A stretch of DNA of 64,000 nt from Candidatus Altimarinota bacterium (GTDB lineage Bacteria; Patescibacteriota; Gracilibacteria; BD1-5; UBA2023): assembly GCA_043739785.1 (NCBI GenBank), contig JAYUDN010000001.1, forward strand, positions 37,392-101,391, given 5' to 3'. A model generated the notes under the pieces. That model was not told the DNA's origin. It made no database searches and saw only the letters and a list, made by a program, of their open reading frames with translations. This document shows, piece by piece, positions 569-61,694 of this stretch (position 1 is its first letter; each line of letters begins with the position of its first letter). The position numbers and the translations under genes are program-made.

Positions 569-626
569 GGTACACGACGAAATCTTCTAGATAGAACATA
601 CTTGCCCAGGTGGTGGAATTGGTAGA
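569..626 (+). repeat. 58-nt direct repeat, copy 1 (35-nt leader plus first 23 nt of tRNA-Leu)
   Basis: ggtacacgacgaaatcttctagatagaacatacttgcccaggtggtggaattggtaga is identical to 691..748. Confidence 0.9.
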
Positions 627-4744: not shown

Positions 4745-4777
4745 TCGAGACGAAGGTAATATAGGGGAGAAGGTACT

Positions 4778-5746
4778 TTAGCCCTTGAGGATAAAGAATC
4801 GAAAAATAGCATGACTTCCGACGAGGAGGATCAGACCGAGTGCGATATAGATAATCGTTCCCTTTGCTTTTTTGAGTTTTTCCTCATCTCCGGCAGATAT
4901 GAGGACGAGCCATCCTGCGTAGATAATAAGAATCACGGAAAGAAGCGCTAGAAACCCATTGAGGTAGTTCACAAAGTTTCCAAATATTCCGAGTGAGGCT
5001 TGCACATTGGGATCCTTGATCGCACAGTCACCAATAGTGACGAGGTTAAACGGTCCTACATTTTTACAGTCGGGCTGACCATAGACGAGTCGTATGAGCG
5101 TTTCTGGGATGCGTATGAGGATGAATCAGATGATACTGTAGATGAGGGTATTTTTTCATTTTTTGAATTTCTCCTCATCTCCACCACCGGTGACCATCGT
5201 GTAAAAAGCAAGAATCGACATCGCGATAAAGCCAAAGGCCGCGAGCATCTGGAGTACCTGTACAAATGGAGAAAAGATATTTCTCCAGAGTTTTCCCCCG
5301 AGTCCAGACCCGATGACTTCCGTAACGTCTCCGAGGATAAGCGTCGTCCATACCGTGTAGGCCACCTGCATCAACAGGATCCCGAGGGATACCCAGAGGA
5401 TATTTTGCCGCCATACCTTCACCTTCTCTTCGCTCGCATCGGAAAGGAGGAGCTTCATCACTCAGACGAGGAGAAATACCAGCGCGATAAAGATAAAGAA
5501 ATTCTTCACATTGTAGGCTATCACGACGACGAGGTCAGTGATCCCCTCGCCACCACCATTTCCAGGTCTGATAAAGGAAGCCAGGAGGGGACCGACAAAT
5601 TGTTCGAGGGTATCATTTCCCTTCCCGCTGTTGTTGACGACTCATCCACGAACATTGAGGGTGGCGTCATCGAGCGCCCAGACAGAGGGCGAAAAAATAG
5701 AAAAAAGTGAAACCAAGAATAACAATACGAGGAGAAGTTTTCGCAT
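4778..5746 (-). CDS. Triple tandem T4SS-pilin-like (TrbC/VirB2-type) fusion protein with signal peptide, 322 aa
   Basis: Track ORFs 4778..5005 and 5156..5461 are in frame and join through TGAs at 5126, 5156, 5462 and 5645. Signal peptide MRKLLLVLLFLVSLFSIFSPSVWA. Three repeats of TM - (S/G)(D/G)(A/D)(S/E)EEK.K(K/V) - TM. Confidence 0.7.
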
Positions 5747-5846
5747 AGAGGGAATTTACATAGATTCATTATATCTGAAGCCGGCGCGGAACGCAAATAT
5801 ACTGCAAAAAATTGTTGAACCTCAGGAGTTTTCCCGGCTGAATTTT

Positions 5847-12351: not shown

Positions 12352-13485
12352 ATGTCCTACGATCAGTTTGCTACCACATTCTCGAAGAGTCGGAAACACC
12401 ATCCTTGGCCAGAATTGGACGCTATTATTTCCGATATCCAATCCGAGGGATATATGAGGGTGCTTGATGTCGGGTGCGGTAACGGAAGGCTCCTCGAAGA
12501 GTGGTTCAAAAGAAGCGAAGCAAAACAAGGTTTGAATTGAGAACAAGAAAACCCCCCGTCGAAGGGGGGCAGGGGGATACGGGGTTGGTATGCTAACTCG
12601 AATCAAGCTATTCCGTATGATAGAAAACTCCTGGAAAAAGCGAAAGAAAATAGAAAATCTGGAAATCCAGTAGAAAATGCTTTTTGGTTTACTATTCTGA
12701 AATCTGAATCTCTTAAAAAATATAAGTTTACTCGACAGAAGCCACTTCTGACTTATGTAGTTGATTTTTATTGTTCCGAACTCTGATTGATTATCGAGCT
12801 CGATGGGGACTCTCATACTACTCAGATTTTATATGATCAAAAAAGAACCGAGGAACTAGAAAAGTACTGACTTTTTATCCTCAGATTTTCGAATCAAGAT
12901 GTGATGTTGCGGCCAGAGTGAGTATTAGAGAATCTACTTGAATGCATTCGACAGAGAGAAAGTTACCCCCCTCCCCCCCTTGGAAGGGGGGTATCACACC
13001 CATATACTTGAAATTGAAAAGAAGCTTTAGATATTACATATCTCTGAATCGATAATTCAGTCGGGATGATTAATGAAGCTAGAAAATGCCATCCTGGATA
13101 TGATTTCCGAGTTATTGAAATGGCTCAACTTGAAAACTTGAAAACTTGAAAACTTGAAAACTATGACGCTATAGTCTTGTTGGCATCTTTCCATCACCTC
13201 GAAACCGAAGCAGAGCGACTGACCGTATTGTCATCGCTTCGGAAAATGCTTTCACCACACGGACGAATCTATATGACGAACTGGAACCTGCTCGGGCAGC
13301 CTCGATATGAAAAAAGTCACCGAGGAAATGGCGACTTCGATATCAAGATCGGGGAATACATTCGATACTACCATAGTTTCCAGATCGAAGAGCTCCAGAC
13401 ACTTTTCGAAAAATCTGGATTCAGTATTCGAGAACATAGAATATTTGAAGGAGGAAAAAATATTTTCTCTATCGTAGGATTATAG
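12352..13485 (+). CDS. Class I SAM-dependent methyltransferase carrying an in-frame DUF559 endonuclease cassette
   Basis: Motif I VLDVGCGNGRLL lies upstream and LGIDNSVGMINEARK plus LLASFHHL downstream. One uninterrupted code-25 frame covers 377 codons. 12253..12540 and 13177..13485 are in the same frame (924 nt apart). Confidence 0.7.
12541..12995 (+). mobile_element. DUF559 (Vsr-like endonuclease fold) cassette with GC-rich hairpin ends, inserted in frame
   Basis: IPYDRKLLEKAKENRK...AFW..L......YKFTRQKPLLTYVVDFYCSEL(G)LIIELDGDSH...YDQKRTEELEKY(G)LFILRFSNQDV. Flanked by cccccc-gtcgaa-gggggg (12552..12569) and cccccc-ttggaa-gggggg (12974..12991). Confidence 0.7.
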
Positions 13486-27734: not shown

Positions 27735-28187
27735 GTATTAGTTTATTAGTTTATTAGTTTATTAGAGCATGAGAGCACTGGTGAACGGATGTACCGGACA
27801 AGAACTTTTTTACAGTTTTCGAAACTTCAAGAGTAGATTCTCGTTTTCTCGGGAATGACAGTAGTAAAATTCCCCTTTCAACCTGCTAACTCCCAGAATC
27901 TACTTTTCTCCGTCTCCGTCGCTTCCACCCCTCCTTTTTTACCCCCTAGTCCCCCTTGGAAGGGGGATTCGGAATCCCCTTATTCGTCGTCCAAAGCCTT
28001 TCCACTTTCCGACTTTCTAACCAGCCAATCAGCTTACCGACTCCTTTCCCCATCCCAGCTTACCTGCACCTAGCTATCTCCTCTTCCTCGTCTATTTCGT
28101 CTCTATAGTTTCTACCCTTCACTCCTTCCACCAACCAGCATACCAGCTAATCAGCCAATCTACCTCACTTCTAATCCCCCCTTTATT
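27735..28187. repeat. Intergenic mosaic repeat array A
   Basis: gtttatta x3 (27741..27764); GC hairpin accccctagtcccccttggaagggggattcggaatcccc (27941..27979); reverse-orientation word tracts (ccagccaatcagcttacc, tctaccc). Confidence 0.8.
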
Positions 28188-29795: not shown

Positions 29796-30314
29796 ATGGC
29801 TACCGAGTTTCAAAACGTTTATACAGATATATCACTTGATCTTTGTAGGAGTTATAGTGAATCAATGATACGAGATATTAATAGTCTTATAGAGGAAGTT
29901 TCAGTGATTGAAACATTTGTTAAATTTTCGAAACAAGAACCTTTACAATGGCTAACTGTACAGAGAGTATTTGAGATTCTCAATACCTCTAGATTTCAAA
30001 GTTTATTCAGTCTTTTGTCTCGGTGAACTGAATCTGAAATATACCAATTTCTCCCGAGTCTCGCAACAAGTATACAAGCAAGTAATGAAACCCTAGATGA
30101 GGATGTAAATAGAGGTTACCTTTTGAGAGAGATAGGTTATTTTCTTAAAGTACTAAATACCGCCACACTTATTTCCCTTAGAGAAAAGGTCGAGCAATGA
30201 AGCATTTCAGATGAAGACATGCGGATCTACCTCGAGTGATCTCGCCAAAGAACAGCAAGATTAAGAAAACAAGTGACATGGAAAGTAGATAAATATAGTT
30301 TTAAATTGAGTTAA
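29796..30314 (+). CDS. Hypothetical protein (172 aa)
   Basis: ATG ORF with three in-frame TGAs, followed by a strong terminator. Confidence 0.4.
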
Positions 30315-30347
30315 AAAAATCCCTTCCAAACTGGAAGGGATTTTTTT
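30314..30347. terminator. Bidirectional rho-independent terminator
   Basis: aaaaaatcccttcc-aaact-ggaagggatttttt. Confidence 0.7.
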
Positions 30348-30350
30348 GAA

Positions 30351-30455
30351 ATCCACTTGAATACTACTCTCACGACCTTCGACGGATCAACTGCAGTTCC
30401 TTCGATGGTCGTGAGAGAGATGTGGTAGCCAAGGAGGTTTTTGTTTGTGACTCAC
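30351..30455 (-). pseudogene. Diverged duplicate of the nusA 3' end
   Basis: The minus strand reads ..LLGYHISLTTIEGTAVDPSK.., compared with the nusA C-terminus ..LLGYRISLTTIEGTEVDPTK.. at 33207..33290. Roughly 80 percent nt identity by eye. Confidence 0.65.
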
Positions 30456-30574: not shown

Positions 30575-32908
30575 CTACCGATATTGGGAAGCAAGTTCTT
30601 CAAGGGCTTCTAGTTTTAGAAGAACATATGTTTTTTTATTCATTGTCGCTCGTTTCGTGTTTTCTTGTAGCCAAGCTTTTGAGCTATTTTTTAAAGTGGT
30701 TCTTTTGAGAACTTCGTATTTAAGTGGAGCATATTTTGACTCGATTAAGGCTCGGTATTCTTCACCAATAGCCTGGTAAGGTATCCCGGATATTGTTATA
30801 ATACCATTTTCGTTTATTTCCTCATCGATTAGAGAAACTTTTGTATTGATTTCAGCAAGTAACTCTCCAATCTTGCTTACACGTATGGCTCTTCATTTTA
30901 TTCCAGTTTGGGTGTTAAAAAATGGAATACTAAGTTTATCTTTCAGACCCGCTCTCATTGAATGATTCAGATATTGATTATTCTTTCCGTACGTATTTTC
31001 AATATAGTGAATATACCTATTGTCTAATACGTAATACCGTTCTCCTTTAAACGCAAATAATCCGTTTTCATCGATTGCATCAGCATGTACTAAAGACTTT
31101 ACACTCATTTTATCTATTAGAACACTTATAGAGCAAAACTGATACCTTTCTCATTCTTGGGACTGTCATACTTTTAGGTGGTCTTGAGATGCCTTTAGGT
31201 GGTTTTGTAGTCTTTGGAGTCACTCCAACTCAATACTAGCATATCATCTTCAGAGAAGTTCTATCAGTTCTCTGTCGAAGTCCGGATGAATTGCCTGAAA
31301 AGGTACTCATCATATAGTGCCAACACCATTTTTATTTATTTCTACAGATACAATATCTTCCATTACCTCATAACCAGAGAGTGTAAGATTATTAAGCATA
31401 ACCTCTCCTAGCTCATGCATCATCTCAAATGCATTCATTATACCACCTACTCGCTTACTACCATCTCAAGATACTTTAGTATTCGTAGAACCACTATTGG
31501 GGCTGGTTCATCTACTCTGTGCATCTGGTGGAGGAGTCAGTACATCCCATGACCGAGGAGCCATATAGAGTGTATTACTTGTATTTTTTGGAGGATATTT
31601 TTTTAGGTCTTGGGCACTCAAGGAACGCATAATTCGTCACATCAGCTGTATACTCTTGGCCGGAGACATAATCGCACATCACTGCAAATAACATCGAAGG
31701 GTCCTGACATCCCATCACTCTGCGACTTGTTGTACCGTTATAACCAGATCAATACTTCTATCCTGTATTCCTTTTTTTGCTTCGCGTGCGTCCATACCTT
31801 TTTTATACTTTCCATTTCCACTTGTCACGCGTACGGCTTTTACTCACTTTGATAGAGCAAGCTGAGTCACACTCTCAGCGTGTTCTATACTTCTACAAGC
31901 GTATATGCCAAGAAGATAATTATCTTGAGCCTTTTTCTCCTCAACGTACTCATCTATAAGCACTTCATCGAAAACCTTACCATCTTCATCAAAGTATCGA
32001 TATTTTTCATAGTCTTTTGTCGTGTCGTCATCATTGGGGCGGGTAGCATACGCATGACCGAGCAGCCGAGCCGTCGGAAGTATCAGAGTTCCATCATTGA
32101 CCGCGTCTTGAATTTTTCCCATATAAAATGGACGGGCGTATTCGAGTACATTTTTATTGGTAAGTCCAGGAGTAGCCGTAAAGTAAAGGTGAAGTTTTTT
32201 CTTGGCAATTTCTGAGATAATGGCTTCAGCTTTATCAATCTCAGATCCATCTTCAGACTCGGTGTCTTCCTCGGAAAGTGAAGTAAAGTGAGATTGAGTT
32301 TTTTCTCATAAACTCTTATGTCACTCATCAGATATGATACAATTTACCTGAGCAAAGATACTTTTAAGTACACCAAAATGAGACTTCGCAAGCTGATTGA
32401 ATCCATGGTAGGTAAGTATGATTACACCATTTGTATTCGATTGCATAAAATGGGGTATTCACTGAATCTGTTCTCATAGACTCCCATCACTTTCAGATGA
32501 TAGGCAAAATACCTCTCATTCGCTATACCCGACACCTGACTTCTCTTCGTTTCCTACGAGTTCATCTCGAGTATTACTTATAAGAGGAATATTGGGAACG
32601 AGAATGACATTGTTTCATCCGAGGGCTCTAAGTATTTTTCAGAAGAGATAGGTTTTTCCTACTCAGATGGCCAACTTCGCCAGTCCTGTACGATATCAAG
32701 ATTGTACTCAATCTATGATTCCACCAAGAGCATCATTTTGCTGTCCACGAAAAGAAATATCCTCATCACTCAGTTTCTGTAACTTCGCCACTTCTGATGG
32801 TATATCAGGCTGGGAAAGAATATCTGTAACTTTTCCACTATTGTCATTTGTGGGTAATCATAGGGCGGGGGGTGCATCAGGGCTGACCGATGGTTCTTCA
32901 GTATGCAT
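30575..32908 (-). CDS. SF2 (DEAD/DEAH-box, type III restriction res-like) helicase, 777 aa
   Basis: Motif I LAI(G)VGKTY, motif II IISDE(G)H, motif III TATPG, motif VI QLM(G)RIMR. More than 30 in-frame TGAs, so only 2 fragments (30893.., 31844..) appear in the standard-code track. Confidence 0.7.
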
Positions 32909-33156
32909 GGAAATAATTAAGTTACCTATATATAATAATATTATTATAACATATATATGTAAATATACAAATACTTCTAGTCACATCTAATTTCTACTTC
33001 TGCAGTTAGTCTACATTTTTGAAGTATCAAAAGGTTCTGTACTCATCTAAAGCCGGAGAATAATATCTTGTGACAAGCACAGAATAGGAGTCTATTAACT
33101 CTAAACAACATGAGTAAAATCAGTTTTCCTTGCCTTCAGTGATGAGTGTACATTAT

Positions 33157-33190
33157 AAAATCTCCTTCCAGATTAGAAGGGGATTTTTTT
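33157..33190 (-). terminator. Terminator downstream of nusA
   Basis: aaaatctccttc / gaaggggatttt hairpin with flanking A/T runs; homologous to the hairpin at 30314..30347. Confidence 0.55.
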
Positions 33191-33206
33191 GAAATCTATT
33201 TGTTTA

Positions 33207-34289
33207 CTACTCTCCTTCTTTCGTCGGATCCACTTCAGTTCCTTCGATGGTGGTGAGGGAGATGCGGTACCCGAGGAGGTCACCCGCGATGTTAATATTG
33301 GTCCCGCCTCGTCCAAGGACTTTCGCCTTTTCTTCATCCTTCACCGTTGCGCGGATGATATTATTCTCTTCATCGATTTCGATCTTTTCGACCGTTCCTG
33401 GGATGAGGGCTCGGCGAACCATTTCTTCTTGATTCGTCGTATAGTTGATGATATCGATCTTTTCCCCGAAGAGTTCATCGACGATATTGCGTACGCGCAT
33501 CCCCTTCGGTCCGATGAGACATCCAGCTGGGTCGACATCTTCCTCATCACTCGCGACGATGATCTTCGTCTTCACTCCCGGCATGCGGGCGATCGAGACA
33601 ATCTCGACGGTCCCTTCCTCGAGTTCTGGGGTATTCATCTCGAAGAGCTTCACGACGAGTTCCTTGTCTTTGCGAGAGAGGATGACGCGAGGTCCATTGA
33701 TTGGATCATTCTCTACCTTGCGTACATAGAGGTGCATACGCTGTCCAGGAGCGTATTTGTCTTTCGAGATCTGCTCACTCTTCGGGAGGATGACCTGGTT
33801 GCCATTGTATTCGAATACGACACGATTCTTCTCGACAAGCTCGACTCGGAGTGAGATAATCGTATCTTCCTTATCCTTGAAGAGGTGGTAGATTTTCTCT
33901 TTTTCAGTTTCTTGGATTTTCTGGACGATCACCTGTTTCGCGGCCTGCGCGGCGATACGACCGAATCCTTCCGAAGCGAGGACTTCGTCAGAGACGTCGA
34001 TTTCGACGGTATCTCCGATACTAAATCCGCTATCTTCACCGATATCTTCGAGGGATATTTCGACATCTGGATTTTCGACGGTTTCGACTACGGTTTTTTC
34101 GACCGATATTTCGAAGGTCCCAGCAGCAATATCCATATGGACACTGACATTGGCTTCTTTACTCGCGTAGTCTTTCTTATATGCGGTTTCGATCGCACGC
34201 TCGATGATGTCGAGGAGGCGTTCTTTCGGGATTTTCTTTTCAGCCGATATTTGGTTGATCGCGGCTTCGATCTTCTGGAGGTCAAACAT
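33207..34289 (-). CDS. nusA: Transcription termination/antitermination factor NusA
   Basis: N-terminal domain MFDLQKIEAAINQISAEKKIPKE, then S1 and two KH domains. The start is placed at Met59 of track ORF 33207..34463 because the upstream part is a translated repeat array. Confidence 0.85.
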   Translation of the reverse strand: MFDLQKIEAAINQISAEKKIPKERLLDIIERAIETAYKKDYASKEANVSVHMDIAAGTFEISVEKTVVETVENPDVEISLEDIGEDSGFSIGDTVEIDVSDEVLASEGFGRIAAQAAKQVIVQKIQETEKEKIYHLFKDKEDTIISLRVELVEKNRVVFEYNGNQVILPKSEQISKDKYAPGQRMHLYVRKVENDPINGPRVILSRKDKELVVKLFEMNTPELEEGTVEIVSIARMPGVKTKIIVASDEEDVDPAGCLIGPKGMRVRNIVDELFGEKIDIINYTTNQEEMVRRALIPGTVEKIEIDEENNIIRATVKDEEKAKVLGRGGTNINIAGDLLGYRISLTTIEGTEVDPTKEGE

Positions 34290-34560
34290 AGAGGGGGAGG
34301 GGTTAAGAATTAGCTGGTTAGCAGGTTTGTTGGGAGGTTGGGATGGGAGAAGGGTAGAGACGGTAGAAACGATCGAACGGTAGAGACGGGGGGCTGGTTT
34401 GCTGATTAGCTGGGAAGGAGAGAAGCTGGTTGGTGGGGAGAGGAGTTTCCATCCCCCTTCCAAGGGGGGCAGGGGGTAAAAAAAGAAGAGTAGAAAAGTA
34501 AAGAGAGAAACCTTATAGTACGGTCATTCCCGTGAAAACGGGAATCTAAATGAAACTTCA
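34290..34560. repeat. Intergenic mosaic repeat array B
   Basis: gctggt/ggtagag words, GC hairpin tccatcccccttccaaggggggcagggggt (34447..34480) and gtcattcccgtgaaaacgggaatc (34523..34546). Confidence 0.8.
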
Positions 34561-36685: not shown

Positions 36686-37480
36686 AAAGTTAGAATAGGA
36701 GGTAGCTGGTAAGCTGGGATGGGAGAAAAAGGGAGAAGAGTGGAAAAGGAGAAAGCTGATTCGCTGGTAAGAAAGTTGGAAAGGAAAAATAGTAGGATAA
36801 CTCGAGAGGAGGAATGGGTAAGATGATGCAAGGGTAAAAGAAAAAAAACGAGTTTTTGTCATTCCGACCGAAACGACCATAGGAAGTGAAGTGGAGGAAT
36901 CCCTTTTCACATTAAGAAGATAAAATCATACTGAAACCAAGGGATCCCTCGATTCCGGCTATCTCCTCCACTCGGGATGACAACGGTGAGAGAAGAGTAG
37001 AAGAGCGTAAAAGTAGAAGAGTAGAAGAGCGAATGGGGGTCTCTATCCCCCTTCCAAGGGGGACAAGGGGGTAGGGTATAAGGAAGTTTGGTGTCATTCC
37101 GACCGAAGTGACAGAGGGGAAAGCGCCACGAGAATTCCATTGTTACTTTGTCATTCCCGTGAAAACGGGAATCCAGCAAATAAGAAACTGGATCCCCGCA
37201 TGCGCGAGGATGACAACCAAAAGAAGTAGAAAAGAGGAAAGGGAGAGAACTTAGAAACGATGGGAAGGTGGATGAGAGTTTTTTGAATCCCCCTTCCAAG
37301 AGGGACTAAGGGGAGTAGGGTATAAGGAAGTAAAAAAGGAGAAGAGTAGAAAAGTAGAATTGGATAAAGTAAGAACAGCAAGAGCCAAACACGGGAAAAC
37401 CCGAGCACTCCAACTCTCGGAGAGATGATCACATTGAAAAGAGAGAAGAAAGTCATATAATACGCCACTCATACACATCT
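36686..37480. repeat. Intergenic mosaic repeat array C (about 0.8 kb, largest in the window)
   Basis: Modules: M3 36858..36903, M5 36941..36982, GC hairpins 37031..37086 and 37280..37330, M3 37093..37138, M1-M2 composite 37150..37215, plus gtagaag and gctggt word tracts. Confidence 0.85.
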
Positions 37481-43275: not shown

Positions 43276-43838
43276 TGAAAAGTGAAGAATGAATAACGAA
43301 GAATAGAGGGGAAATTACGAAATACGAATGAAGAATTAGTAGCAAAAAATGAAGAATATGAGCCCTTCGTCATTCTGAGGTCGCCCCTTTGCGAAGCATT
43401 GGAAGTACCCTTGGGGTACGAAGAATCCAGATTCCGAAAGACCGAACTTCTTCAGGACTATCCTGATCGGTGTACGGGAGTGAAAAATTGTTGTCATTCC
43501 CGTGAAAACGGGAATCCACTTCTCTTTACCCCCTTAGTCCCCCTTGGAAGGGGGATTCAAAATCCTCATTCGCTTTTCTTTTGTTGTCATCTCGAGTGGA
43601 GGCGATAGCCGGAATCGAGAGATCCCTTTGCTTCAGTATGATTTCAATCCCTTGAAGTGGAATAAGGGATTCCTCCGCTTCACTTCCAGCGGTCGTTTCG
43701 GTCGGAATGACAAAAAAATCAGTTCTACTCGTCTACCATCTTCTACCACACTCTACCATCTTCTACCACACTCTACCATCGTCTACCCAACCAGCACACT
43801 AGCAAACCAGCCAACCAGTTATTTCCTAACCTTCCCCT
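43276..43838. repeat. Intergenic mosaic repeat array D
   Basis: M6 43367..43429, M1 43493..43517, GC hairpin 43527..43565, M5 (reverse) 43586..43625, M3 (reverse) 43666..43711, and CTACC phased every 10 nt at 43733..43783. Confidence 0.85.
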
Positions 43839-44681
43839 ATGCGTCTTGATCTCGCCGTATCCTCGAAACTCAGTATTTCTCGCAACCGTGCCCAGCGTCT
43901 TATCGATGAGGGACTCGTTTCTGTCGACGGGAAAGTCTGTCGAAAACCGTCCCATGAAGTGGAAGGGGAGATTATCGAAGTATCCGAGGGTTCCAGTAAT
44001 CACTGGGTTGCTCGGTCAGCAGGGAAACTGGATGGTTTCTTGGATGAGTTGCAGGTTGAAGGTTGCAGGTTACAGGATGAAAAATGAGAAAATGTATGAG
44101 AGAAAAACTCCATTCTTGATCAATCCAGCTCGTTTTTATGAACCAAGATAGATGAAGTTCTAGTTTCAAAACCTTCAACTTGCAACTTGCAACTTGCAAC
44201 TGCCACCTGCCTCGACATCGGCTCTTCTACCGGAGGATTTACTCAGATCCTCCTCGAGCGGGGAGCGAGGCGAGTGGTTGCGGTCGATGTCGGGACGGAT
44301 CAGCTTCACCTTAGTCTGCGAGGCGATCCGCATATCGAGCTCTATGAAAATACGGATATTCGCACCTTTTCGAAAATAGAAAAATTCGACATTATCACCA
44401 TCGATGTTTCCTTTATCTCCCTTCGGGAAATCGTTCCCGAGCTACAGAGATTCATGAAAGAGGATACCGATATATTCCTTCTTTTTAAGCCTCAGTTTGA
44501 AGTCGGACGAGCGAACCTCCGTAAGACGGGAGTCCCGAAAAGTGAGGGAATCATAGATTTATCCCTTCATGATTTCCAGATATTTCTCGAACATGCCGGA
44601 TTCACCATAATGAAAGTATCGAAAGCTCAGGTCGTCGGGGAAGCTGGTAATCAGGAGTATATGATGTGGGTGAGGCGGTAG
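43839..44681 (+). CDS. tlyA: TlyA-family rRNA 2'-O-methyltransferase (S4 plus FtsJ domains) with an internal insertion
   Basis: The S4 domain is MRLDLAVSSKLSISRNRAQRLIDEGLVSVDGK. The SAM motif is CLDIGSSTGGFTQILLERGA..V.AVDVG. 43839..44087 and 44187..44681 are in frame. Confidence 0.8.
44048..44204 (+). repeat. Heptad-array-bounded segment inside tlyA
   Basis: Left: gttgcag|gttgaag|gttgcag|gttacag (44048..44075). Right: cttcaac|ttgcaac|ttgcaac|ttgcaac (44173..44200). The arrays are in inverted sense and bracket a ~95-nt core. Confidence 0.7.
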
Positions 44682-45030
44682 GGAGGTAGAAACGAGGGAA
44701 AGATAGAGACGGAAAAAGGCCGGTAAGCTGGTTTGCTGGTTAGAGGGTTGGAAAATTGGAAAGTGGATGAGTGGAAAAGGTAGAATAAATGAGCTTTTGT
44801 CATCCCGACCGAAATGGAACAAGTTGGAGTGTAATAGAGAAACCCCATTTCTATTTTGTCATTCCCGTGAAAACGGGAATCCAGCAAACAAGAATCTGGA
44901 TCCCCGCATACGCGAGGATGACAAACAAAGGAAGTGGCAGAAGTCTAGAAAGATAGAAAAAATTAGAATATATAACAAGAAAAAACTGAAAAATTTGCCA
45001 AATAAAAATAAATAGAGTATGATTAGTAGG
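44682..45030. repeat. Intergenic mosaic repeat array E
   Basis: ggtagaa/gctggt words, an M3 variant at 44799..44845 and the M1-M2 composite at 44858..44923. Confidence 0.8.
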
Positions 45031-45049: not shown

Positions 45050-45865
45050 ATGAAAATAAAAATCTTCTTATTTTTTCTTGCTTTGTTCAGTATGTCCACT
45101 CTATTTGGCGCTACTCCGAATTGTGGGAGTAACTACTGTAATAGAATCGACAATCTTCCTAAAAACCTTACCCCTCTTACTCCAGCTGGAGAGGCTTATA
45201 TTAGAAGTCTAAAAGACGTAGTAAAACCAGATTGATCGATAGATGCCCAGGCATTACAAATTGCCCTACAAGCAAATGATAAAAGTATTATCGTCGACAA
45301 TAAATTCTGAGACAATACGATTACTGCTGCAAATGAAGCTGGAAAAACCTGAATTATAAACGGTACACTTAAGCCCCTTCCTAGCTGAGATACGAGTCCT
45401 CTTCCGTCCTCATGAGGGCCAATTACATTAGATCCAATTACCTGATCACCAGTTTCAGGATGAGGAGGAAATACTCCCAAAAAAGACTCGATGGTTATTG
45501 TTACAGAAATAATACCTGGAGCTGACTGTAGATGTGATGTAGATTGAGATCCAAATTATGCTCAAAAGTGAGCTTGTACTTCAAAAACTCCTGTACCTGA
45601 AAGAAAGTATCGTTGTTATATCCCACCTGGCTTTTCTAGCTTTCAGATGATTCTTGCCGAAATTATTCGCTATGTAGTATACACATCGATGCTTCTTGGA
45701 GTCCTCGCTCTTACGGTGATGGGAATCCTCTGGTCGATCGCTGGAGCTGATGAGCCGAAAGTGAAGGCTATGAAGGGATGGTTTATCAATATCATCATCG
45801 GACTCACGATACTCTTTTTCTTCCGAATCATCCTCTCCTTCCTCGCACCTTGGATATTCCAGTAG
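45050..45865 (+). CDS. Secreted Cys-containing protein with a C-terminal T4SS-pilin-like domain
   Basis: Signal peptide MKIKIFLFFLALFSMSTLFG. About ten in-frame TGAs. The C-terminus TM-AGADEPKVKAMKG-TM (track ORF 45647..45865) has the same motif layout as the triple pilin at 4778..5746. Confidence 0.6.
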
Positions 45866-46290
45866 GAGAAAGCTGGTTAGCTGGTTCGCTGGTAGGAGAG
45901 GAAGCCGGTAAGCTGGTTTGCAGATTAGCAGGTTGGTCGGTCGGGTAGAAAGGATAGAGATACTTCATATGGATAATTATAGAAGACAAAAAGAGTGAAA
46001 TTCCCCCTTGATAAAGGGGGTGAGGGGGATTTTGTTTCCCCTTTCTTACTTCCTAATCTGTCTATCTTGTCTATGCATTTCTCTTTCACCTTCACCTGCC
46101 TATATTGTGCTGTGTTCATACTCTCTCTACTCACCCCTCCCTCCTACCGACTTCCACCCTTCAACTTTCTAAAGAGCAAACCAGCCCTCCCCGTTTCTAC
46201 CATTTCTACCGACTCTATAGATACAGAGTCCCGAGTATTTGCCTTTTCACCCGATTTCACTATATTTCTCCTGACTAAGAACTAACTTTC
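45866..46290. repeat. Intergenic mosaic repeat array F
   Basis: 8-nt periodic words agctggtt|agctggtt|cgctggta ... gccggtaa|gctggttt|gcagatta|gcaggttg|gtcggtcg|ggtagaaa (45871..45959), and a GC hairpin at 45998..46034. Confidence 0.8.
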
Positions 46291-54892: not shown

Positions 54893-55520
54893 GAAGCAGG
54901 TAGATCTTGGTAGATAACAGGTAGAAACGGCAGTAGGTAGAAAGCGAGGAAAATAAGATGAGAAAAGGCTGGTATGCCGTTAGGCTGGTAAGCTGGTATG
55001 GGAGAAACGAATGGAAAAAGGAATAGTAGAGAGATGATAGCAGATAGAATATGGGAAAATGGTAGAAACGGTAGAAGAGGAGAAAAGTAGAAAAGGGAGG
55101 AACGATAGGATTGGTAAAAAATGGATGGGATTTTTTGAATCCCCCTTTCAAGGGCGACTAAGAGGGTAACGGTTCGGAAAGACGATGGGGAGGTAGAAAT
55201 GATGGAATGGTAGAAAAGGTAGAAGCGAAAGAAGTATTTTTTGCGTTATTCCGACCTTAGTGGAATAAAGTAAAATCAAGAGAAGGAATCGTATCCTCAT
55301 TTCGTCATTCCCGTGAAAACGGGAATCCAGCAAATAAGGAACTGGATCCCCGCATACGCGAGGATGACAAAGAGACGAAGGAATGCCTCTCCCGAGTCCT
55401 ATGGATCGGCATGACACAGTATTGTCATTCCGACCGAAACGACCAGAGGAAGTGAAGTGGAGAAATCCCTTTTATTCTCATCCGTCTTGTTCGATAGTTT
55501 TTATCGATTTTCCTTCTATT
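54893..55520. repeat. Intergenic mosaic repeat array G
   Basis: GGTAG at 54888, 54899, 54909, 54920 and 54936; GC hairpin 55141..55182; M1-M2 composite 55304..55369; M3 55424..55468. Confidence 0.85.
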
Positions 55521-56447: not shown

Positions 56448-56700
56448 AGGGGACGAGAGTTCGAGAGTATAAGAGTTTTACAGTTTAAGAGGAGAAGGGC
56501 GCGGAAGCTTGGAAGCTAGTTAGCCGGTAAGCTGGGACGGTAGAAATGATGGGATGGAGGCGGTAGAAACGGCAGAAACGATTTCTGTGTCATTCCGACC
56601 GAAGCGGAGGAATCTCTTTTCTCGTTTTGTCATTCCCTTGAAAACGGGAAGCCAGAAAACGATGGGATGGTAGAGGAGCTAGACATGGGAAAATGTAGGC
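56448..56700. repeat. Intergenic mosaic repeat array H
   Basis: gctggt/ggtagaa words, M3 at 56589..56614 and an M1 variant at 56629..56655. Confidence 0.8.
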
Positions 56701-57968: not shown

Positions 57969-58245
57969 GAGAGAGACGGTAGAAATGGTAGGAGCAGGTA
58001 GATTCTAGCAAATAGAAGATAGAAAGGGCAGAGAGGTTAGAAACGGTAGAAACTAAGTATAATTGGTAATTCCATCCCCCTTCTAAGGGGGATTGGGGGG
58101 TAAGGTATGAGAGAGCGAAATGGTAGAAGGGTAGAAAAGTAGAAAAGGGAGAAGTTGAATAGGATGAGTAGTTCAATTACAGTATAGCTTCTATTCAGCT
58201 CTTTTTTGGTTTGGAGAATGAGGTTTTTTTCCATAAAATCCCACT
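57969..58245. repeat. Intergenic mosaic repeat array I
   Basis: GGTAG at 57978, 57987 and 57997; GC hairpin 58070..58109; gtagaaaag words. Confidence 0.8.
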
Positions 58246-61200
58246 ATGTACCACATCCAGAACTATCTTTCGAAAATCCAATCTTCTCTTGCTTCTGGTC
58301 ATGCGACAGAGCATACCTATCGACCCGCGCTGAAAGAATTATTTGAGTGTATCACCACTTTTACGGTCCACAATGAACCGAAACGCAGTGAACATGGCGC
58401 TCCTGACTTTATTTTTCTCGATGGGATGATCCCGATGATGTATGCCGAAGCCAAAGATATCCATATCTCCCTCGATAAGATAGAAAAGTCAGAACAGCTC
58501 GATCGGTACTTCGGGTACCCGAAACTTATCCTGACCAATGGTATCGAGTTTCGATTTTACAACAACGGTATCCGCTATAGAGAACCGATCGTCATCGCGA
58601 AAAAGTCGTGAAATATGCTCGACAGTTTCCCAGAAAAATTCGAAGTTCTCGGAAAGGAGATGCAGGCATTTATATCTGACTATATAGATACGATTCGCTC
58701 TGCCCGACACCTTGCTAAGATCATGTGAGGAAAGGCACAGCGAATTCGTGATAACCTCCGAGATATGATGTGGAACACCGAACGTTTCCCTGATATCTGG
58801 AAGCTCTATCACACCTTCAAATCAGAGATCCTTCATGACCTGTCACATGACGACTTCGCGGATCTCTATGCTCAGACGCTTGTCTATGGTCTTTTTGTCG
58901 CCCGCTATCACGACCAGACTCCTGAGGACTTTACTCGTTCTGAGGCTCGCGATCTGGTCCCGAAGTCGAATCCGCTTCTTCGAAGATTTTTCGACCATAT
59001 CGCCGGTGAAGGATATGAGAAACGCCTCGAGTATATCGTCGATGAGCTCTGTCGGGTTTTTGTACACGCGGATGTGCACTCGCTGATGCATGGGATGTAC
59101 CAGAAAGAAACGCATGACCCCGTCATCCACTTCTATGAAGACTTCCTCGGCGAGTATGATAGTAAGCTCCGTATGCAACGTGGAGTCTTCTACACGCCTG
59201 CTCCCGTCGTGAAGTTTATTATACGAGCGGTGGATGATGTGCTGAAAACCCACTTCCACCTCCCGAAGTGACTCGCGGATACGAGCAAGATCAAGATCGA
59301 ACGAGAGATCCAGAAATATGATAAGAAATGAGAGCGGAAGACGGAAATCATCGAAACACATCGGGTCCAGATCCTCGACCCTGCGACGGGTACGGGGACA
59401 TTTCTCGACGAGATCGTGCGACATATTCACGAGAAGATGAAAGGACAAGCGGGGATGTGGCCAAGCTATGTGAATGCTGACCTCCTCCCACGACTGCATG
59501 GATTCGAACTGATGATGGCGAGCTACACGATCGCTCACTTGAAACTCGGGCTCACGCTCGCAGAGACAGGAGTGACCGATATCGAAAAACGCCTCCAGAT
59601 CTACCTGACGAACTCCCTCGAAGAAGCCAAGTGAATGAAGGAAGACCAGTGAACCCTTTTCGGACTCCTCGAATCGATCACCGATGAGGCTCGACAGGCG
59701 GATGAGGTGAAGCGAGATAAACCTGTGATGATCGTCGTCGGGAATCCTCCGTATAGTGTGAGTAGTACGAACAAGGGGAAATGGATTCAAGACTTACTCA
59801 TTGATTATAAGAAGTGATTGTGAGAGAAGAAAATCAATCTCGACGATGACTATATCAAGTTTATCCGGTTCGGAGAGTCACTTATCGAGAAAAATGATGA
59901 ATGAATCCTCGCCTATATCTCGAATAATTCCTTTATCGATGGCATTACTCACCGACAGATGCGTAAGCACCTGATGGAATCCTTTGATGAGATTTATATC
60001 CTCGACCTCCATGGAAGCGCGAAGAAAAAAGAAATGTCACCAGATGGATGAACAGATGAAAATGTCTTCGATATTATGCAAGGCGTGAGTATCAATATTT
60101 TCATAAAGAAAAATAGAAATTCATCGAGCAAATTACTTGCAAAAGTTTATCACCGTGATCTCTTTGGAAAACGAGAGCTGAAATATGAGTGGCTCGAAAG
60201 TAATGGTCTGGAAAATTCCCCTCATTGAGGGGTGTCCGAAGGACGGGGTGGAGGTTTTCATGAACTTCAACCAGTTGAGCCATATTATTTTTTTGTTCCG
60301 AAGGATTTTTCTGAAGTAGCAGATTATGATATTTGATTTAAGCTGAATGATATCTTTGTAAACTCTAGTTGTTGAATTAAATCACATAGGGATGATTTTG
60401 TTATTGCTTTTAGGAAAGATGAAAATCACGCCAAAGTTTATGATTTGATAGATGAAAAATTGGCAGATTCAATGTTACTTAATAAATATTGATTAAAGGA
60501 GTCTGTAACATGGAATATATCTACTGCTAGAGTAAAGATTAAGGAAGAATCAAAAGTAAGTCTTTTATTAAGACAGATTGCTTATCGACCATTCGATACT
60601 CGTTCTATAATTTATACTAAGAGTTTAGTTGAGAGAGATAGGAGTGAAATCATGTGTAACTATTTTCAAGAAAATATTGGTATAGTCTGCACAAAGCAAG
60701 TAATGATTGAGAATTTTTCACATATACTAGTTTCAAAAGCACTAACAGATATTTGCTTTACTTCCGCAAATTCAAAAGAATCAGGATATAACTTTCCCCT
60801 CTACCTCTATCCTGACTGAAACAGTGCCACCCCGTCGCTACGCGCCACCCCTCAATGAGGGGAATTTCCGAATCGGGTTCCGAATCTCGATGCGACTATT
60901 TGGCAGAAGATTAATGAAAGTGTCGGTCGCGAGACAACTCCTGAAGAAGTCCTCGACTATATCTATGCCGTGCTTCACTCACCGAGTTATAGAGAGAAAT
61001 ATAAGGAATTTCTCAAGATAGATTTCCCACGAGTGCCGTATCCAGATTCATTGGTACCGTCCACCCCGAGCCCCTCAAGAGGGGAAGTGCGAGAGGTATT
61101 CGATAAGCTTGTCGCACTCGGATGAGAACTTCGAGGTTTACATTTGCTCGAGTCGCCGAAAGTCGAAGAGTATATCACGACTTTTCCTATTGCAGGAAGT

Positions 61201-61494
61201 GGGGAAGTTGAGAAAGTCCGTTATGAGAGAATTCCCGTCATTGCGAGGGACGAAGCAATCCAGACTTCTGAAATCGGAACTGTCTGGATTAATGAAACAC
61301 AATATTTCGGTGATGTACCAGAAATTGCTTGGAATTTCCATATCGGTGGTTATCAGCCAGCACAGAAGTGGCTCAAGGATAGGAAATGACGCATGCTCAC
61401 TTGGGAAGATATCGCCCACTATCAGTCGATGATCGTGGCACTGACTGAGACTGCGAGGGTGATGGGTGAGGTGGATAAGGTTATGGAAGTTTAA
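58246..61494 (+). CDS. Single-chain restriction-modification enzyme (type IIG/IIL or type ISP-related), 1082 aa
   Basis: An N-terminal PD-(D/E)xK-like nuclease domain (GAPDF...YAEAKD) is followed by a gamma-class N6-adenine MTase (motif I ILDPATGTGTFL, motif IV VVGNPPYS at 59743). The C-terminal target-recognition region contains FPRVPYP and WNFHIGGYQPAQKWLKDRK(G)R. About 20 in-frame TGAs. Confidence 0.75.
60212..60251 (-). repeat. GC-hairpin element copy a (reverse orientation), in frame inside the R-M gene
   Basis: The reverse complement, ccaccccgtccttcggacacccctcaatgaggggaatttt, matches copy b. Confidence 0.8.
60827..60869 (+). repeat. GC-hairpin element copy b, in frame inside the R-M gene
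   Basis: ccaccccgtcgctacgcgccacccctcaatgaggggaatttcc; the palindrome cccctcaatgagggg is at 60847..60861. Confidence 0.8.
61061..61088 (+). repeat. GC-hairpin element copy c (short variant), in frame inside the R-M gene
   Basis: ccaccccgagcccctcaagaggggaagt. Confidence 0.65.
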
Positions 61495-61520
61495 AAAATC
61501 CCGCGTGAGCGGGATTTTTC
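61494..61520 (+). terminator. Rho-independent terminator after the R-M gene
   Basis: aaaaatcccgc-gtga-gcgggattttt. Confidence 0.7.
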
Positions 61521-61694
61521 TTATACTCTTCGTACCCCTTTAAAAGGAGCATCATCCGATGTTTTGACATCGATGATTCGATGAATGTTTGTATCGTATT
61601 TTACCCAGTGATCAATCTTTGGATTGAAAAACTGTATACGATCTGAGACGGCACCATTTCGGTGACCATCCCCAATTGGCGGATTTGTTGCCAT
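61521..61694 (-). CDS. Small conserved-looking hypothetical protein (57 aa)
   Basis: MATNPPIGDGHRNGAVSDRIQFFNPKIDHWVKYDTNIHRIIDVKTSDDAPFKGVRRV, with no TGA. Confidence 0.4.
   Translation of the reverse strand: MATNPPIGDGHRNGAVSDRIQFFNPKIDHWVKYDTNIHRIIDVKTSDDAPFKGVRRV

What the first reader, a model, noticed from the sequence alone, without database searches (positions are those of the whole stretch)
60212..61088. The same GC-hairpin element inserted three times, in both orientations and always in frame, inside the R-M gene
60827..60869 (ccaccccgtc...cccctcaatgaggggaatttcc) and the reverse complement of 60212..60251 are the same ~40-nt element. 61061..61088 is a short variant. All three are translated as Gly/Pro/Ser-rich loops (LENSPH-G-GVSEGRGGG, SATPSLRATPQ-G-GEFPN, STPSPSRGEV) without breaking the 1082-codon frame. 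As I recall it, the peptide PSLRATP..EG(N/E)F is the typical N-terminal leader of free-standing DUF559 genes in CPR genomes, so these look like solo ends of the DUF559 cassette family. The behaviour parallels Rickettsia palindromic elements (RPEs), which insert in frame into coding genes.
Basis: partly seen in the sequence, partly recalled or inferred. Interest (0 to 1): 0.8.

Follow-up and report, generated by a model that had tools for sequence, protein, structure and literature searches.

The report
Hairpin repeats inside a restriction gene
A restriction-modification gene of a TGA-recoded (Gracilibacteria-type) bacterium carries four short GC-rich hairpin DNA repeats inserted in frame at surface loops; three belong to a double-hairpin repeat family found in many phyla, which also forms the inverted ends of DUF559 endonuclease cassettes that sit in frame inside many other genes.

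Summary
E1 (60213-60254, minus), E2 (60824-60867, plus) and E3 (61058-61089, plus) are copies of one element. They lie in a single 1082-codon gene (58246-61494), which is open only if TGA is read as Gly (code 25).

All four are insertions of 11-15 codons, absent from nearly all of 47 homologs and patchily distributed. They map to loops of a predicted structure.

The element is a conserved double hairpin: CCACCCCG, a covarying stem-loop, then invariant CCCCTCAAnGAGGGGAAT. It occurs in Ignavibacteria, Kapabacteria, CPR, a Bacillota MAG and other groups. Most copies are solo and intergenic, like REP elements.

The DUF559 link is real but partial. Inverted copies of the element bound DUF559 cassettes in an orthologous Gracilibacteria R-M gene and in a Cloacimonadota methylase. 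Related hairpins bound a DUF559 cassette nested in a methyltransferase in this same window.

About 30 of the 150 best DUF559 relatives are nested in frame in larger proteins, many of them housekeeping enzymes. "Always in frame" follows mostly from composition, recoding and selection.

Verdict: a new variant of intragenic REP/RPE-like repeats. Mobilisation by DUF559 is inferred, not shown.

The parts
58246..61494 (+). Host gene: single-polypeptide R-M enzyme with an N-terminal PD..EAK nuclease motif, a gamma-type N6-adenine methyltransferase (NPPY) and a Type ISP C-terminal specificity domain. 1082 codons including 18 TGA=Gly.
   Evidence: (Type_ISP_C E 3e-80; N6_Mtase, Eco57I, MmeI_Mtase).
60213..60254 (-). 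E1: complete double-hairpin element in reverse orientation. It is a 39-nt (13-codon) insertion relative to the empty site in P0001 and is read as NSPHGGVSEGRGG, with TGA=Gly in the hairpin-2 loop.
   Evidence: 55.2 bits. Absent from all 47 homologs. The site is a turn between a helix and a strand.
60824..60867 (+). E2: complete double-hairpin element in forward orientation, read as ATPSLRATPQGGEF with TGA=Gly in the loop. Net insertion of about 11 codons in a length-variable loop.
   Evidence: 52.1 bits. Absent from homologs. The site is a 12-residue coil with low pLDDT.
61058..61089 (+). E3: variant element (TCCACCCC, GAG, CCCCTCAAGAGGGGAA) without the inner hairpin. It lies within a 39-nt (13-codon) insertion LVPSTPSPSRGEV.
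   Evidence: 23.2 bits, E 1.5e-4. Shared only with P0009 at 87% nt identity, although closer homologs lack it.
61231..61275 (+). E4: in-frame insertion (15 codons, IPVIARDEAIQTSEI) of a different hairpin family (GTCATT-stem-loop-stem-AATC), at the tip of a beta-hairpin. This site is an insertion hotspot: P0009 carries its DUF559 cassette here.
   Evidence: Shared only with P0003 at 87% nt identity.
61494..61519 (.). Perfect 11-bp hairpin flanked by A and T runs (AAAAATCCCGCGTGAGCGGGATTTTT), directly after the stop codon. Probable bidirectional intrinsic terminator of the gene.
12352..13485 (+). Related system in the same window: a class I SAM methyltransferase gene with a DUF559 cassette nested in frame between motif I and motif II.
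   Evidence: With the cassette removed, the Methyltransf_12 profile matches contiguously at positions 1-98.
12550..12579 (+). 5' terminal repeat of that cassette: hairpin CCCCCCGTCGAAGGGGGG, 3 nt, then a G-run. Read as NPPSKGGRGI.
12607..12960 (+). DUF559 (Vsr-like PD-(D/E)xK) endonuclease core of the cassette, with the ...VDFYC..ELDGDSH motifs intact.
   Evidence: tblastn E 1.6e-18; PF04480 E 1.1e-27.
12964..12993 (+). 3' terminal repeat of that cassette, inverted relative to the 5' one: C-run, 3 nt, then hairpin CCCCCCTTGGAAGGGGGG. Read as YPPPPLGRGV.

Best explanation
E1, E2 and E3 are in-frame insertions of a small (about 32-48 nt), GC-rich, REP/MITE-like double-hairpin DNA element. E4 is an insertion of a second such family. 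The enzyme tolerates them for four reasons. (a) They landed in surface loops. (b) Their net length is a multiple of three (39, about 33, 39 and 45 nt). (c) Their composition gives almost no stop codons, and in this organism none, because TGA is Gly. (d) They encode Gly/Pro/Ser-rich flexible peptides. The element has a defined anatomy: CCACCCCG, then an inner stem-loop whose stem sequence varies but stays paired (T-N-C triloop, CCA tail), then an invariant outer hairpin CCCCTC-AAN-GAGGGG followed by AAT(T). The same element, in inverted pairs with the outer hairpin outermost, bounds DUF559 (Vsr-like PD-(D/E)xK nuclease) cassettes. These cassettes are themselves inserted in frame in genes. The most likely mechanism is that the short elements are non-autonomous relatives of these cassettes, recognised as hairpin or cruciform DNA by a DUF559 nuclease acting in trans, and copied into new sites by nicking and repair or recombination. 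This would be analogous to REPINs and their RAYT transposase. Shown: the identity of the elements, their status as insertions, the loop location, covariation, the cross-phylum distribution, and the physical association with DUF559 cassette ends. Inferred: mobility itself, the role of DUF559 as mobiliser, and neutrality for the enzyme.
For: Insertions: all four segments are absent from almost all of 47 homologs, with clean empty sites at nucleotide level. Patchiness: Q's nearest relatives (P0001 78%, P0002 75%) lack E3 and E4. P0009 (65%) has E3 and P0003 (68%) has E4, while their own nearest relatives lack them. Nucleotide identity inside E3 and E4 is 87%, against 65% gene-wide and 46% at third codon positions. 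Loops: all four sites are coil or turn in the AlphaFold model of insert-free P0001 (pLDDT 83). Family: 77 full-architecture copies were found in many phyla. There are 58 distinct inner spacers; 50% have stems of at least 5 bp, against 9% of shuffles. Compensatory changes fill 22 cells against 7.9 +/- 2.1 in shuffles (0 of 500), and the signal vanishes when partners are slid. A model built without window sequences recovers E1, E2 and E3. E1 and E2 each differ by 1 nt, in the triloop, from copies in Ignavibacteria-like contigs. Frame tolerance: 5.65 of 6 frames are open under code 25, against 4.0 under code 11 and 3.8 for random code-25 segments. DUF559 link: the P0009 cassette is bounded by inverted complete copies at L001 12865-12908(-), 12979-13019(-) and 13437-13483(+). 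The same orientation rule holds at L054, L045 and L121. Related inverted terminal hairpins bound the window's own cassette and those in hisA, recG and miaA. The hairpin-encoded peptide motif is 13-fold enriched in the flanks of 25 nested cassettes. Three identical DUF559 genes are co-amplified with CCACCCC-hairpin units in Kapabacteria.
Against: No transposition event, target-site duplication or very recent empty/filled pair was seen. The closest homolog is only 70-78% identical, so exact junctions are uncertain. 71 of 77 copies have no DUF559 within 8 kb. The association could therefore be secondary: hairpin elements may accumulate next to, or target, DUF559 genes. PD-(D/E)xK nucleases are not known to act alone as transposases (general knowledge). 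Most nested cassettes are bounded by the simpler 'hairpin plus G-run' relatives rather than the exact double-hairpin family. The source genome was not recovered, so there is no genome-wide census. All three copies in the 64 kb lie in one gene, which is unexplained.
Confidence: 0.7

Rival explanations
1. The elements are ordinary REP-type repeats of the CGTC-tagged kind, spread by some other machinery: a RAYT or other transposase, replication slippage, or recombination at hairpins. DUF559 genes would merely be frequent neighbours or preferred targets of such hairpins. The copies in the R-M gene would have nothing mechanistic to do with DUF559.
For: Most copies are solo and intergenic, typically just downstream of ordinary genes. 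The inner hairpin has the CGTC tag and CCA tail that define CGTC REPs. Intragenic and multiple insertions in DNA-metabolism genes are described for that superfamily (PMC3733652). Hairpin islands with several different families exist in the window without any DUF559.
Against: PMC3733652 reports no transposase associated with CGTC REPs. Here the elements show a consistent inverted, outer-hairpin-outward orientation around DUF559 in every case examined, plus 13-fold enrichment of hairpin peptides at cassette borders. That pattern is what a cognate partner would show. No RAYT was looked for genome-wide because the genomes were not available.
Confidence: 0.2
2. The segments are selected functional modules of this enzyme or its mRNA. 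Possibilities are flexible linkers that tune domain movement, RNA structures that regulate translation, or an E1/E2 inverted-repeat switch that inverts 569 nt of the gene to turn the R-M system off (phase variation).
For: E1 and E2 are inverted repeats in the same relative arrangement as cassette ends. R-M genes are classic phase-variable loci (general knowledge). E1 and E2 are nearly undecayed (55 and 52 bits). Nucleotide conservation of E3 and E4 exceeds that of the gene.
Against: The segments are absent from almost all homologs, so they are not needed for function. Inversion of 60255-60823 gives 7-12 stops per reverse frame and truncates the protein at residue 697, so only an OFF state is possible and no alternative coding segment exists. 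No invertase was examined. The local folds are not unusually stable. The same elements are mostly intergenic in other phyla.
Confidence: 0.07
3. The segments are ancestral loops lost elsewhere, convergent low-complexity peptides, or an assembly artefact.
For: Gly/Pro/Ser-rich loops are common in proteins, and two of the segments are shared with one homolog each.
Against: Nucleotide-level matches to a structured element in unrelated phyla and in intergenic DNA. Patchy, non-phylogenetic distribution. Orthologous copies in independent assemblies (L001, L002, L091).
Confidence: 0.03

Closest known systems
Rickettsia palindromic elements (RPEs)
   Same: Short palindromic repeats inserted in frame in unrelated protein-coding genes, sometimes more than once per gene, and apparently compatible with protein fold (review PMC10969869). 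RPE-4 and RPE-6 are classed as CGTC-tagged REPs (PMC3733652).
   Different: The classic RPE-1 type is about 100-150 bp and restricted to Rickettsia. This element is about 32-48 nt, has an invariant second hairpin, occurs in many phyla, is mostly intergenic, and is physically linked to DUF559 cassettes. Two of the copies here are readable only because TGA is Gly.
CGTC-tagged REP superfamily (Di Nocera et al. 2013, PMC3733652)
   Same: An unpaired CGTC tag 5' of a stem-loop and a CCA tail. Variable stems within a family. Overlapping host phyla (Chlorobi/Ignavibacteria, Bacteroidetes, Spirochaetes, Thermotogae). Intragenic copies enriched in DNA-metabolism genes. No known transposase.
   Different: Described families have 8-9 bp stems starting with A-T pairs and 4-5 nt loops. 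Here stems are 3-8 bp with a 3-nt T-N-C loop. The module is always sandwiched between CCACCC and the invariant CCCCTCAAnGAGGGGAAT hairpin. The CPR variants have CCGG in place of CGTC. The element's sequence was not found in the paper or its supplements.
REPIN / RAYT systems
   Same: Dispersed hairpin repeats, with one enzyme gene flanked by inverted copies of the same repeats. The short repeats far outnumber the enzyme gene (abstracts listed).
   Different: RAYT is an HUH tyrosine transposase of the IS200/IS605 type. DUF559 is a Vsr-like PD-(D/E)xK nuclease. RAYTs are single-copy and extragenic, whereas DUF559 cassettes are multi-copy in some genomes and are found nested in frame inside genes.
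Inteins, and 'fractured genes' with Vsr-like free-standing endonucleases (Dassa et al. 2009, PMC2677866)
   Same: An endonuclease-encoding insertion in frame in conserved, often DNA- or RNA-metabolism, genes. The same insertion site recurs in diverged homologs (RecG, iPGM). A Vsr-type fold serves as a homing nuclease in the 2009 family.
   Different: There is no Hint or splicing domain and no room for one: in hisA the host domain ends at residue 168 and DUF559 starts at 170. There are no Cys/Ser/Thr...His-Asn junctions. The borders are hairpin DNA repeats. The short elements of the finding encode no protein domain at all.
Mitochondrial GC clusters (yeast) and double-hairpin elements (Allomyces)
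   Same: GC-rich one- or two-hairpin mobile elements in an AT-richer genome. Some are inserted in frame in coding genes (var1) and some are associated with mobile endonuclease ORFs. This rests on my own knowledge; PMC4478555 (seen) describes GC clusters as a mobile DNA family.
   Different: These are organellar, unrelated in sequence, and no DUF559 is involved.

Membership tests
Double-hairpin element family defined here (model R1) | CCACCCC(G) run, inner covarying stem-loop, CA, invariant CCCCTC-AAN-GAGGGG hairpin, AAT(T) | tested here: met
   E1 55.2 bits, E2 52.1 bits, and E3 23.2 bits (lacks the inner hairpin), with a model built only from other phyla.
CGTC-tagged REPs (PMC3733652) | Unpaired CGTC (or TGTC/CCTC) tag at one end of the palindrome | tested here: met
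   E1, E2 and most copies read CCCCGTC immediately 5' of the inner stem. CPR variants read CCGG/CCGC.
CGTC-tagged REPs (PMC3733652) | Stem of 8-9 bp beginning with A-T pairs; loop of 4-5 nt | tested here: not met
   Stems are 3-8 bp (E1 4 bp, E2 3 bp), mostly G/C-started, with a 3-nt T-N-C loop.
CGTC-tagged REPs (PMC3733652) | Short unpaired tail fitting CCA | tested here: met
   The spacer ends in ...CCA or ...ACA in nearly all 58 variants.
Rickettsia palindromic elements | Sequence membership in one of the RPE families; Rickettsia or close relatives | tested here: not met
   Different sequence and hosts. No Rfam family matched. No direct sequence comparison with RPE consensus sequences was possible.
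Rickettsia palindromic elements | Behaviour: palindromic repeat inserted in frame in functional genes at structurally permissive sites | tested here: met
MITE | Terminal inverted repeats and target-site duplication | tested here: inconclusive
   The element consists of hairpins rather than TIRs around a core. No target-site duplication could be defined because the nearest empty site is 78% identical. A 9-nt direct repeat TTCCGAATC lies next to E2, but both copies are on the same side.
MITE | A related autonomous element whose ends match the short element | tested here: met
   DUF559 cassettes are bounded by inverted copies of the same element. That DUF559 acts as the mobilising enzyme is not shown.
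REPIN/RAYT | Association with an IS200/IS605-type tyrosine transposase (RAYT) | not tested
   No whole genome was available. No RAYT was seen next to any copy inspected, but this was not searched systematically.
Intein (for the DUF559 cassettes) | Hint/splicing domain blocks and nucleophilic junction residues | tested here: not met
   Pfam finds only DUF559/MTES_1575 between the host halves. Flanks are 0-75 aa of hairpin-encoded peptide, and the junctions lack C/S/T...HN.
Type ISP / Type IIG-like R-M enzyme (host gene) | N6-adenine MTase motifs and the Type ISP C-terminal specificity domain in one polypeptide | tested here: met
   (PF18135 E 3e-80; PF02384, PF07669, PF20473); NPPY and DPATGTG motifs. 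The helicase-like ATPase of true Type ISP enzymes is absent, so the architecture is closer to Type IIG/MmeI-like.
Genetic code 25 | TGA translated as Gly | tested here: met
   Related loci are labelled Candidatus Gracilibacteria.

The most novel reading that the evidence does not exclude
DUF559 (Vsr-like) endonuclease cassettes bounded by inverted GC-hairpin repeats would be a previously undescribed class of mobile element. [quoted passage not shown] They lack any splicing domain, so they persist as nested domains translated with the host protein. The 40-nt double-hairpin elements of this finding would be their non-autonomous derivatives. That would make DUF559 the long-missing mobilising nuclease of CGTC-type REP/RPE-like repeats.
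Probability: 0.3. Interest if true: 0.85.

Novelty: new variant of a known kind. Interest (0 to 1): 0.62.

Why it matters
In-frame palindromic repeats (RPEs, intragenic REPs) have been known since 2000, but what spreads the CGTC-type repeats is an open question. The 2013 survey states that they lack a dedicated transposase. This locus, together with the orthologous Gracilibacteria gene that carries a whole DUF559 cassette with the same element as inverted ends, gives a concrete and testable candidate partner enzyme. It also shows how codon reassignment (TGA=Gly) removes the main coding barrier to such insertions. Finally, it leads to a broader observation: DUF559 endonuclease cassettes are nested in frame in many housekeeping genes of CPR and other bacteria. 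If these are mobile, they would be an intein-like lifestyle without protein splicing. Practically, these repeats and cassettes inflate and distort protein predictions in CPR genomes and should be recognised in annotation.

Tried and rejected
(1) Local thermodynamic stability of each segment: z-scores were about 0 against shuffles, so this is not informative for elements this short. Covariation across copies was used instead.

(2) Rfam: no family matches the element in the window or in seven element-rich loci. Two weak RsmY hits at 61362-61615 reflect the terminator hairpin.

(3) Spanning-ORF test inside the window: useless under code 25, because almost any GC-rich stretch is open. It was informative only in standard-code genomes.

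P0121 was used instead.

(5) Looking for the source genome or close strains: the best homolog is 70% identical. The metagenome scan returned only Ignavibacteria-like contigs. No presence/absence polymorphism could therefore be tested.

(6) Coding-preserving inversion between E1 and E2: rejected, because it creates stops in all reverse frames.

(7) Intein hypothesis for the cassettes: rejected, because there is no Hint domain and no space for one.

(8) Length bias towards multiples of three across all copies: 45 of 79 copies have lengths divisible by three over an arbitrarily chosen span. This is dominated by one 18-nt-spacer lineage and the true ends are unknown, so it was not used.

(9) Literature searches for DUF559 with in-frame insertion, CPR or inteins found no description. 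The library holds only open-access papers.
Full report
**Genetic code and host gene.** With the standard bacterial code the region is fragmented. If TGA is not a stop, long-ORF content in the window rises from 12,856 to 47,597 codons and one frame spans 58237-61491. The gene starts at ATG 58246 and has 1082 codons, 18 of them TGA. In an alignment with standard-code homologs these TGAs fall on Gly, never on Trp, and five of them fall on invariant Gly columns. TGG falls on Trp. The organism therefore uses code 25. The two public loci most closely tied to this system are labelled Candidatus Gracilibacteria (L045 and L091). The protein has an N6-adenine methyltransferase core and a Type ISP C-terminal specificity domain (PF18135, E 3e-80). 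It also has a PD..EAK nuclease motif near the N-terminus and intact DPATGTG and NPPY motifs. A perfect 11-bp terminator-like hairpin follows the stop codon.

**The observation.** E2 and the reverse complement of E1 share CCACCCCGTC...CACCCCTCAATGAGGGGAATTT. A 23-mer from it, with up to 3 mismatches, finds only these two sites in the window, with none expected by chance. E1 and E2 use the frame that places TGA in the loop of the outer hairpin. I found a fourth in-frame element of another family at 61231-61275: GTCATTGCGAGGGACGAAGCAATC followed by a second small palindrome, read as IPVIARDEAIQTSEI.

**Insertions at loops.** In a MAFFT alignment with 47 homologs at 48-70% identity, the only query-specific insertions of 7 or more residues are these four, of 11, 11, 13 and 15 residues. 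At nucleotide level, E1 is exactly 39 nt (AATTCCCCTCATTGAGGGGTGTCCGAAGGACGGGGTGGA) relative to the empty site in P0001. E3 is 39 nt and E4 is 45 nt. An AlphaFold model of insert-free P0001 (mean pLDDT 83) places all four sites in coil or turn:
- E1 lies in the turn between helix 645-659 and strand 661-663.
- E2 lies in a 12-residue coil with pLDDT 66.
- E3 lies in the coil before helix 877-894.
- E4 lies at the D923-G924 tip of a beta-hairpin.

**Patchy distribution.** E3 is shared only with P0009 and E4 only with P0003. The query's closest relatives (P0001 78%, P0002 75% over conserved columns) lack both. The nearest relatives of P0009 and P0003 also lack them. Inside E3 and E4, nucleotide identity is 87%, against 65% gene-wide and 46% at third codon positions. 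The E4 site also holds unrelated insertions in P0002, P0031, P0033, P0079 and P0101. This is the behaviour of mobile DNA or of insertion hotspots, not of an inherited loop.

**What the element is.** A scan of one genome per species with the 17-base core gave 129 matches, where roughly 70 would be expected by chance (my estimate from 596 Gb, both strands, 17 specified bases). Of these, 77 share the full architecture TCCACCCCG, variable spacer, CACCCCTCAAnGAGGGGAAT(T). They come from Kapabacteria (at least 15 copies in one chromosome), Ignavibacteria, several MAGs labelled Hyphomicrobiales, a Bacillota MAG, Thermotogaceae, Cloacimonadota, Limisphaerales, Bacteroidota, and CPR groups (Paceibacteria, Nomurabacteria, Saccharibacteria, Gracilibacteria).
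- The spacer has 58 distinct sequences but is almost always a hairpin with a T-N-C triloop. Half have stems of at least 5 bp, against 9% of shuffled spacers.
- On an ungapped 16-sequence alignment, three inner-stem pairs show compensatory changes in 22 cells, against 7.9 +/- 2.1 in shuffles (0 of 500). The signal disappears when partners are slid. The outer hairpin is invariant.
- A covariance model built from these non-window copies scores E1 at 55.2 bits, E2 at 52.1 bits and E3 at 23.2 bits. No other hit in the 64 kb has an E-value below 0.01.
- E2 differs by 1 nt in 41, and E1 by 1 nt in 39, from copies in Ignavibacteria-like contigs. Both differences are in the triloop.
- Rfam has no matching family.

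**Typical genomic context.** In standard-code genomes only 10% of copies lie in an open frame of at least 150 codons, against 77% of random positions in the same loci. Copies usually sit between ordinary genes. Real intragenic cases exist: a TatD-type hydrolase in two Paceibacteria carries a solo copy read as IHPTPTKVGAPLNEGN (L032 and L059). The element is stop-free in 4.0 of 6 frames under the standard code and in 5.65 of 6 under code 25, where 45 of 63 distinct copies are open in all six frames. Random segments give 3.1 and 3.8. 'Never breaks the frame' is therefore largely a consequence of composition plus TGA reassignment. Only divisibility by three needs selection.

**The DUF559 link.** P0009, a 1248-aa Gracilibacteria orthologue, carries a complete DUF559 domain in frame at exactly the E4 site. 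Its DNA shows two reverse-orientation copies of the element upstream of DUF559 and one forward copy downstream, with the outer hairpin outermost. Model R1 scores them at 46.9, 36.3 and 44.5 bits. All R1 hits in that 23.7-kb locus are inside the R-M gene. The same orientation rule holds at a Cloacimonadota DNA methylase with a nested DUF559 (L054, standard code), at L045 and at L121.

The window has a cassette of its own. The methyltransferase gene 12352-13485 is interrupted in frame, between motif I and motif II, by DUF559 (PF04480, E 1.1e-27). The cassette is flanked by inverted 'hairpin, 3 nt, G-run' repeats. Removing it restores a contiguous match to Methyltransf_12 profile positions 1-98. 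Other copies of that hairpin family lie in the window's intergenic repeat islands.

Seen from the element's side, however, 71 of 77 copies have no DUF559 within 8 kb. The short element is therefore mainly solo.

**A wider phenomenon seen in passing.** An exhaustive search with a free-standing relative (P0121) found 14,248 DUF559 proteins. Among the best 150, about 30 are long proteins with DUF559 in the interior. Pfam identifies the following hosts:
- DNA repair and replication: RecG (three cases, DEAD domain split), RecJ, an SNF2 helicase.
- tRNA and translation: LeuRS and another class I synthetase, MiaA (split), a MiaB-type radical-SAM enzyme (split), TsaC, a tRNA U5-methyltransferase.
- Metabolism: iPGM (four cases, split), HisA (split), cysteine desulfurase (split), RNase HII, a Mur ligase, riboflavin kinase.
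- R-M systems: HsdS, an Eco57I-type methylase, and four Type ISP enzymes.

No Hint domain is present and the flanks are too short for one. 23 of 25 cassettes start with an (I/L)PYN motif. A hairpin-encoded peptide motif is 13-fold enriched in the 50-aa flanks. DNA of three standard-code cases (hisA, recG, miaA) confirms inverted terminal hairpin repeats.

In RecG, cassette and host diverge in step (43-47% against 41-47%) at one site. In iPGM (65% against 46%) and Type ISP (76% against 52%) the cassette is more conserved than the host. In Kapabacteria, three identical free-standing DUF559 genes are co-amplified with CCACCCC-hairpin units. Most DUF559 relatives are nevertheless small free-standing genes.

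**Comparison with the literature.** In-frame palindromic repeats are known: RPEs (review PMC10969869), and GTAG- and CGTC-tagged REPs. The latter are sometimes intragenic, sometimes inserted twice in one gene, and over-represented in DNA repair genes (PMC3733652). The inner hairpin of this element has the CGTC tag and CCA tail of that superfamily. Its stem is shorter, its loop has 3 nt, and it is always coupled to the invariant outer hairpin. Its sequence does not appear in that paper or its supplements. That paper stresses that CGTC repeats have no associated transposase. Vsr-like homing endonucleases are known from 'fractured genes' with split inteins (PMC2677866), but those need inteins. 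I found no paper that links DUF559 to repeats or to in-frame nesting. The library is open-access only.

**Interpretation.** The best-supported reading is that E1-E4 are tolerated in-frame insertions of REP/MITE-like hairpin elements at permissive loops. E1-E3 belong to a cross-phylum double-hairpin family that also serves as the inverted ends of DUF559 cassettes. Mobility and the role of DUF559 are inferred from patchiness, near-identical copies across phyla, and the consistent end architecture. No transposition event or target-site duplication was seen.

An E1/E2-mediated inversion could only switch the gene off, because it would introduce stops from residue 697 onward.

Three points remain unexplained:
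- Why all three copies in the 64 kb lie in one gene.
- Why E1 and E2 mimic cassette ends around 569 nt of host sequence.
- How housekeeping enzymes accommodate a nested nuclease domain of about 20 kDa.

Noticed in passing
window 12352-13485 (cassette 12550-12993): A class I SAM methyltransferase gene carries a DUF559 endonuclease cassette nested in frame between motif I and motif II. The cassette is bounded by inverted GC-hairpin repeats. Removing it restores a contiguous Pfam match.
   Followed up: yes
proteins P0244-P0384; loci L123 469-1629, L124 6001-7692, L125 6001-7392, L054 6531-7935: DUF559 cassettes are nested in frame in many unrelated genes: RecG, RecJ, LeuRS, MiaA, a MiaB-type enzyme, RNase HII, HisA, iPGM, cysteine desulfurase, a Mur ligase, TsaC, riboflavin kinase, HsdS and Type ISP enzymes. 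They have no intein domains and do have hairpin-encoded borders. I found no description of this in the literature searched.
   Followed up: partly
window 34300-34550, 36700-37370, 43480-43800, 44670-44940, 45860-46030, 54980-55480, 56500-56660, 57970-58176, 27830-27990: Intergenic 'repeat islands' built from several different hairpin modules. Examples are TGTCATTCCCGTGAAAACGGGAATCC, TGTCATTCCGACCGAAACGAC..., GGATCCCCGCATGCGCGAGGATGACAA, and CCCCCTTCCAAGGGGG plus a G-run, together with purine-rich 8-nt periodic tracts. One island lies directly upstream of the R-M gene.
   Followed up: partly
window 60213-60254 and 60824-60867 versus L082, L134, L137, L139 and L126-L141: E1 and E2 of this code-25 CPR bacterium each differ by a single loop nucleotide from copies in Ignavibacteria/Kapabacteria-like contigs. 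Such near-identity across phyla suggests horizontal spread or very strong constraint.
   Followed up: partly
window 60866-60874 and 60878-60886: A 9-nt direct repeat TTCCGAATC (peptides FPNR/VPNL) lies immediately 3' of E2. Both copies are on the same side of the element, so it is not a classical target-site duplication.
   Followed up: no
window 60213-60867: E1 (reverse) and E2 (forward) have the same relative orientation as the two ends of a DUF559 cassette, but they enclose 569 nt of genuine host coding sequence.
   Followed up: partly
L062 (Kapabacteria OY762428), reverse strand about 3050-6050: Three identical 134-codon DUF559 ORFs repeat with a period of about 840 nt, inside arrays of a roughly 105-nt unit that contains CCACCCC plus a TCCCCTCCTA...TAGGAGGGGA hairpin.
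   Followed up: partly
L124 5277-5924 and 6001-7692: In the contig with the DUF559-containing recG, the RecG wedge domain is called as a separate upstream ORF. The gene may be interrupted a second time.
   Followed up: no
protein P0300 (1334 aa) and P0290: iPGM homologs that carry other extra domains inside the same reading frame besides DUF559: GNAT acetyltransferase and a methyltransferase in P0300, and DUF218 and NUDIX in P0290. This suggests repeated nesting or read-through fusions.
   Followed up: no
window 568-626 and 690-748: An exact 59-nt direct repeat 122 nt apart, ending in GCCCAGGTGGTGGAATTGGTAGA. This looks like the 5' part of a tRNA gene, so it may be a tandem tRNA gene pair with identical upstream regions.
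   Followed up: no
window 30313-30438 and 33157-33280: A duplicated segment of about 125 nt (74-87% identity) that starts with a long A/T-flanked hairpin (16-bp stem at 30313-30347). The two copies bracket the gene at 30578-32986.
   Followed up: no
protein P0101 (Ignavibacterium album) at the E4 site: A cultured, standard-code organism has a different palindromic insertion (IQTSEVSKTSEVLIT, with repeated TSEV) at the same beta-hairpin tip of the homologous enzyme. This supports the site being a general insertion hotspot.
   Followed up: no
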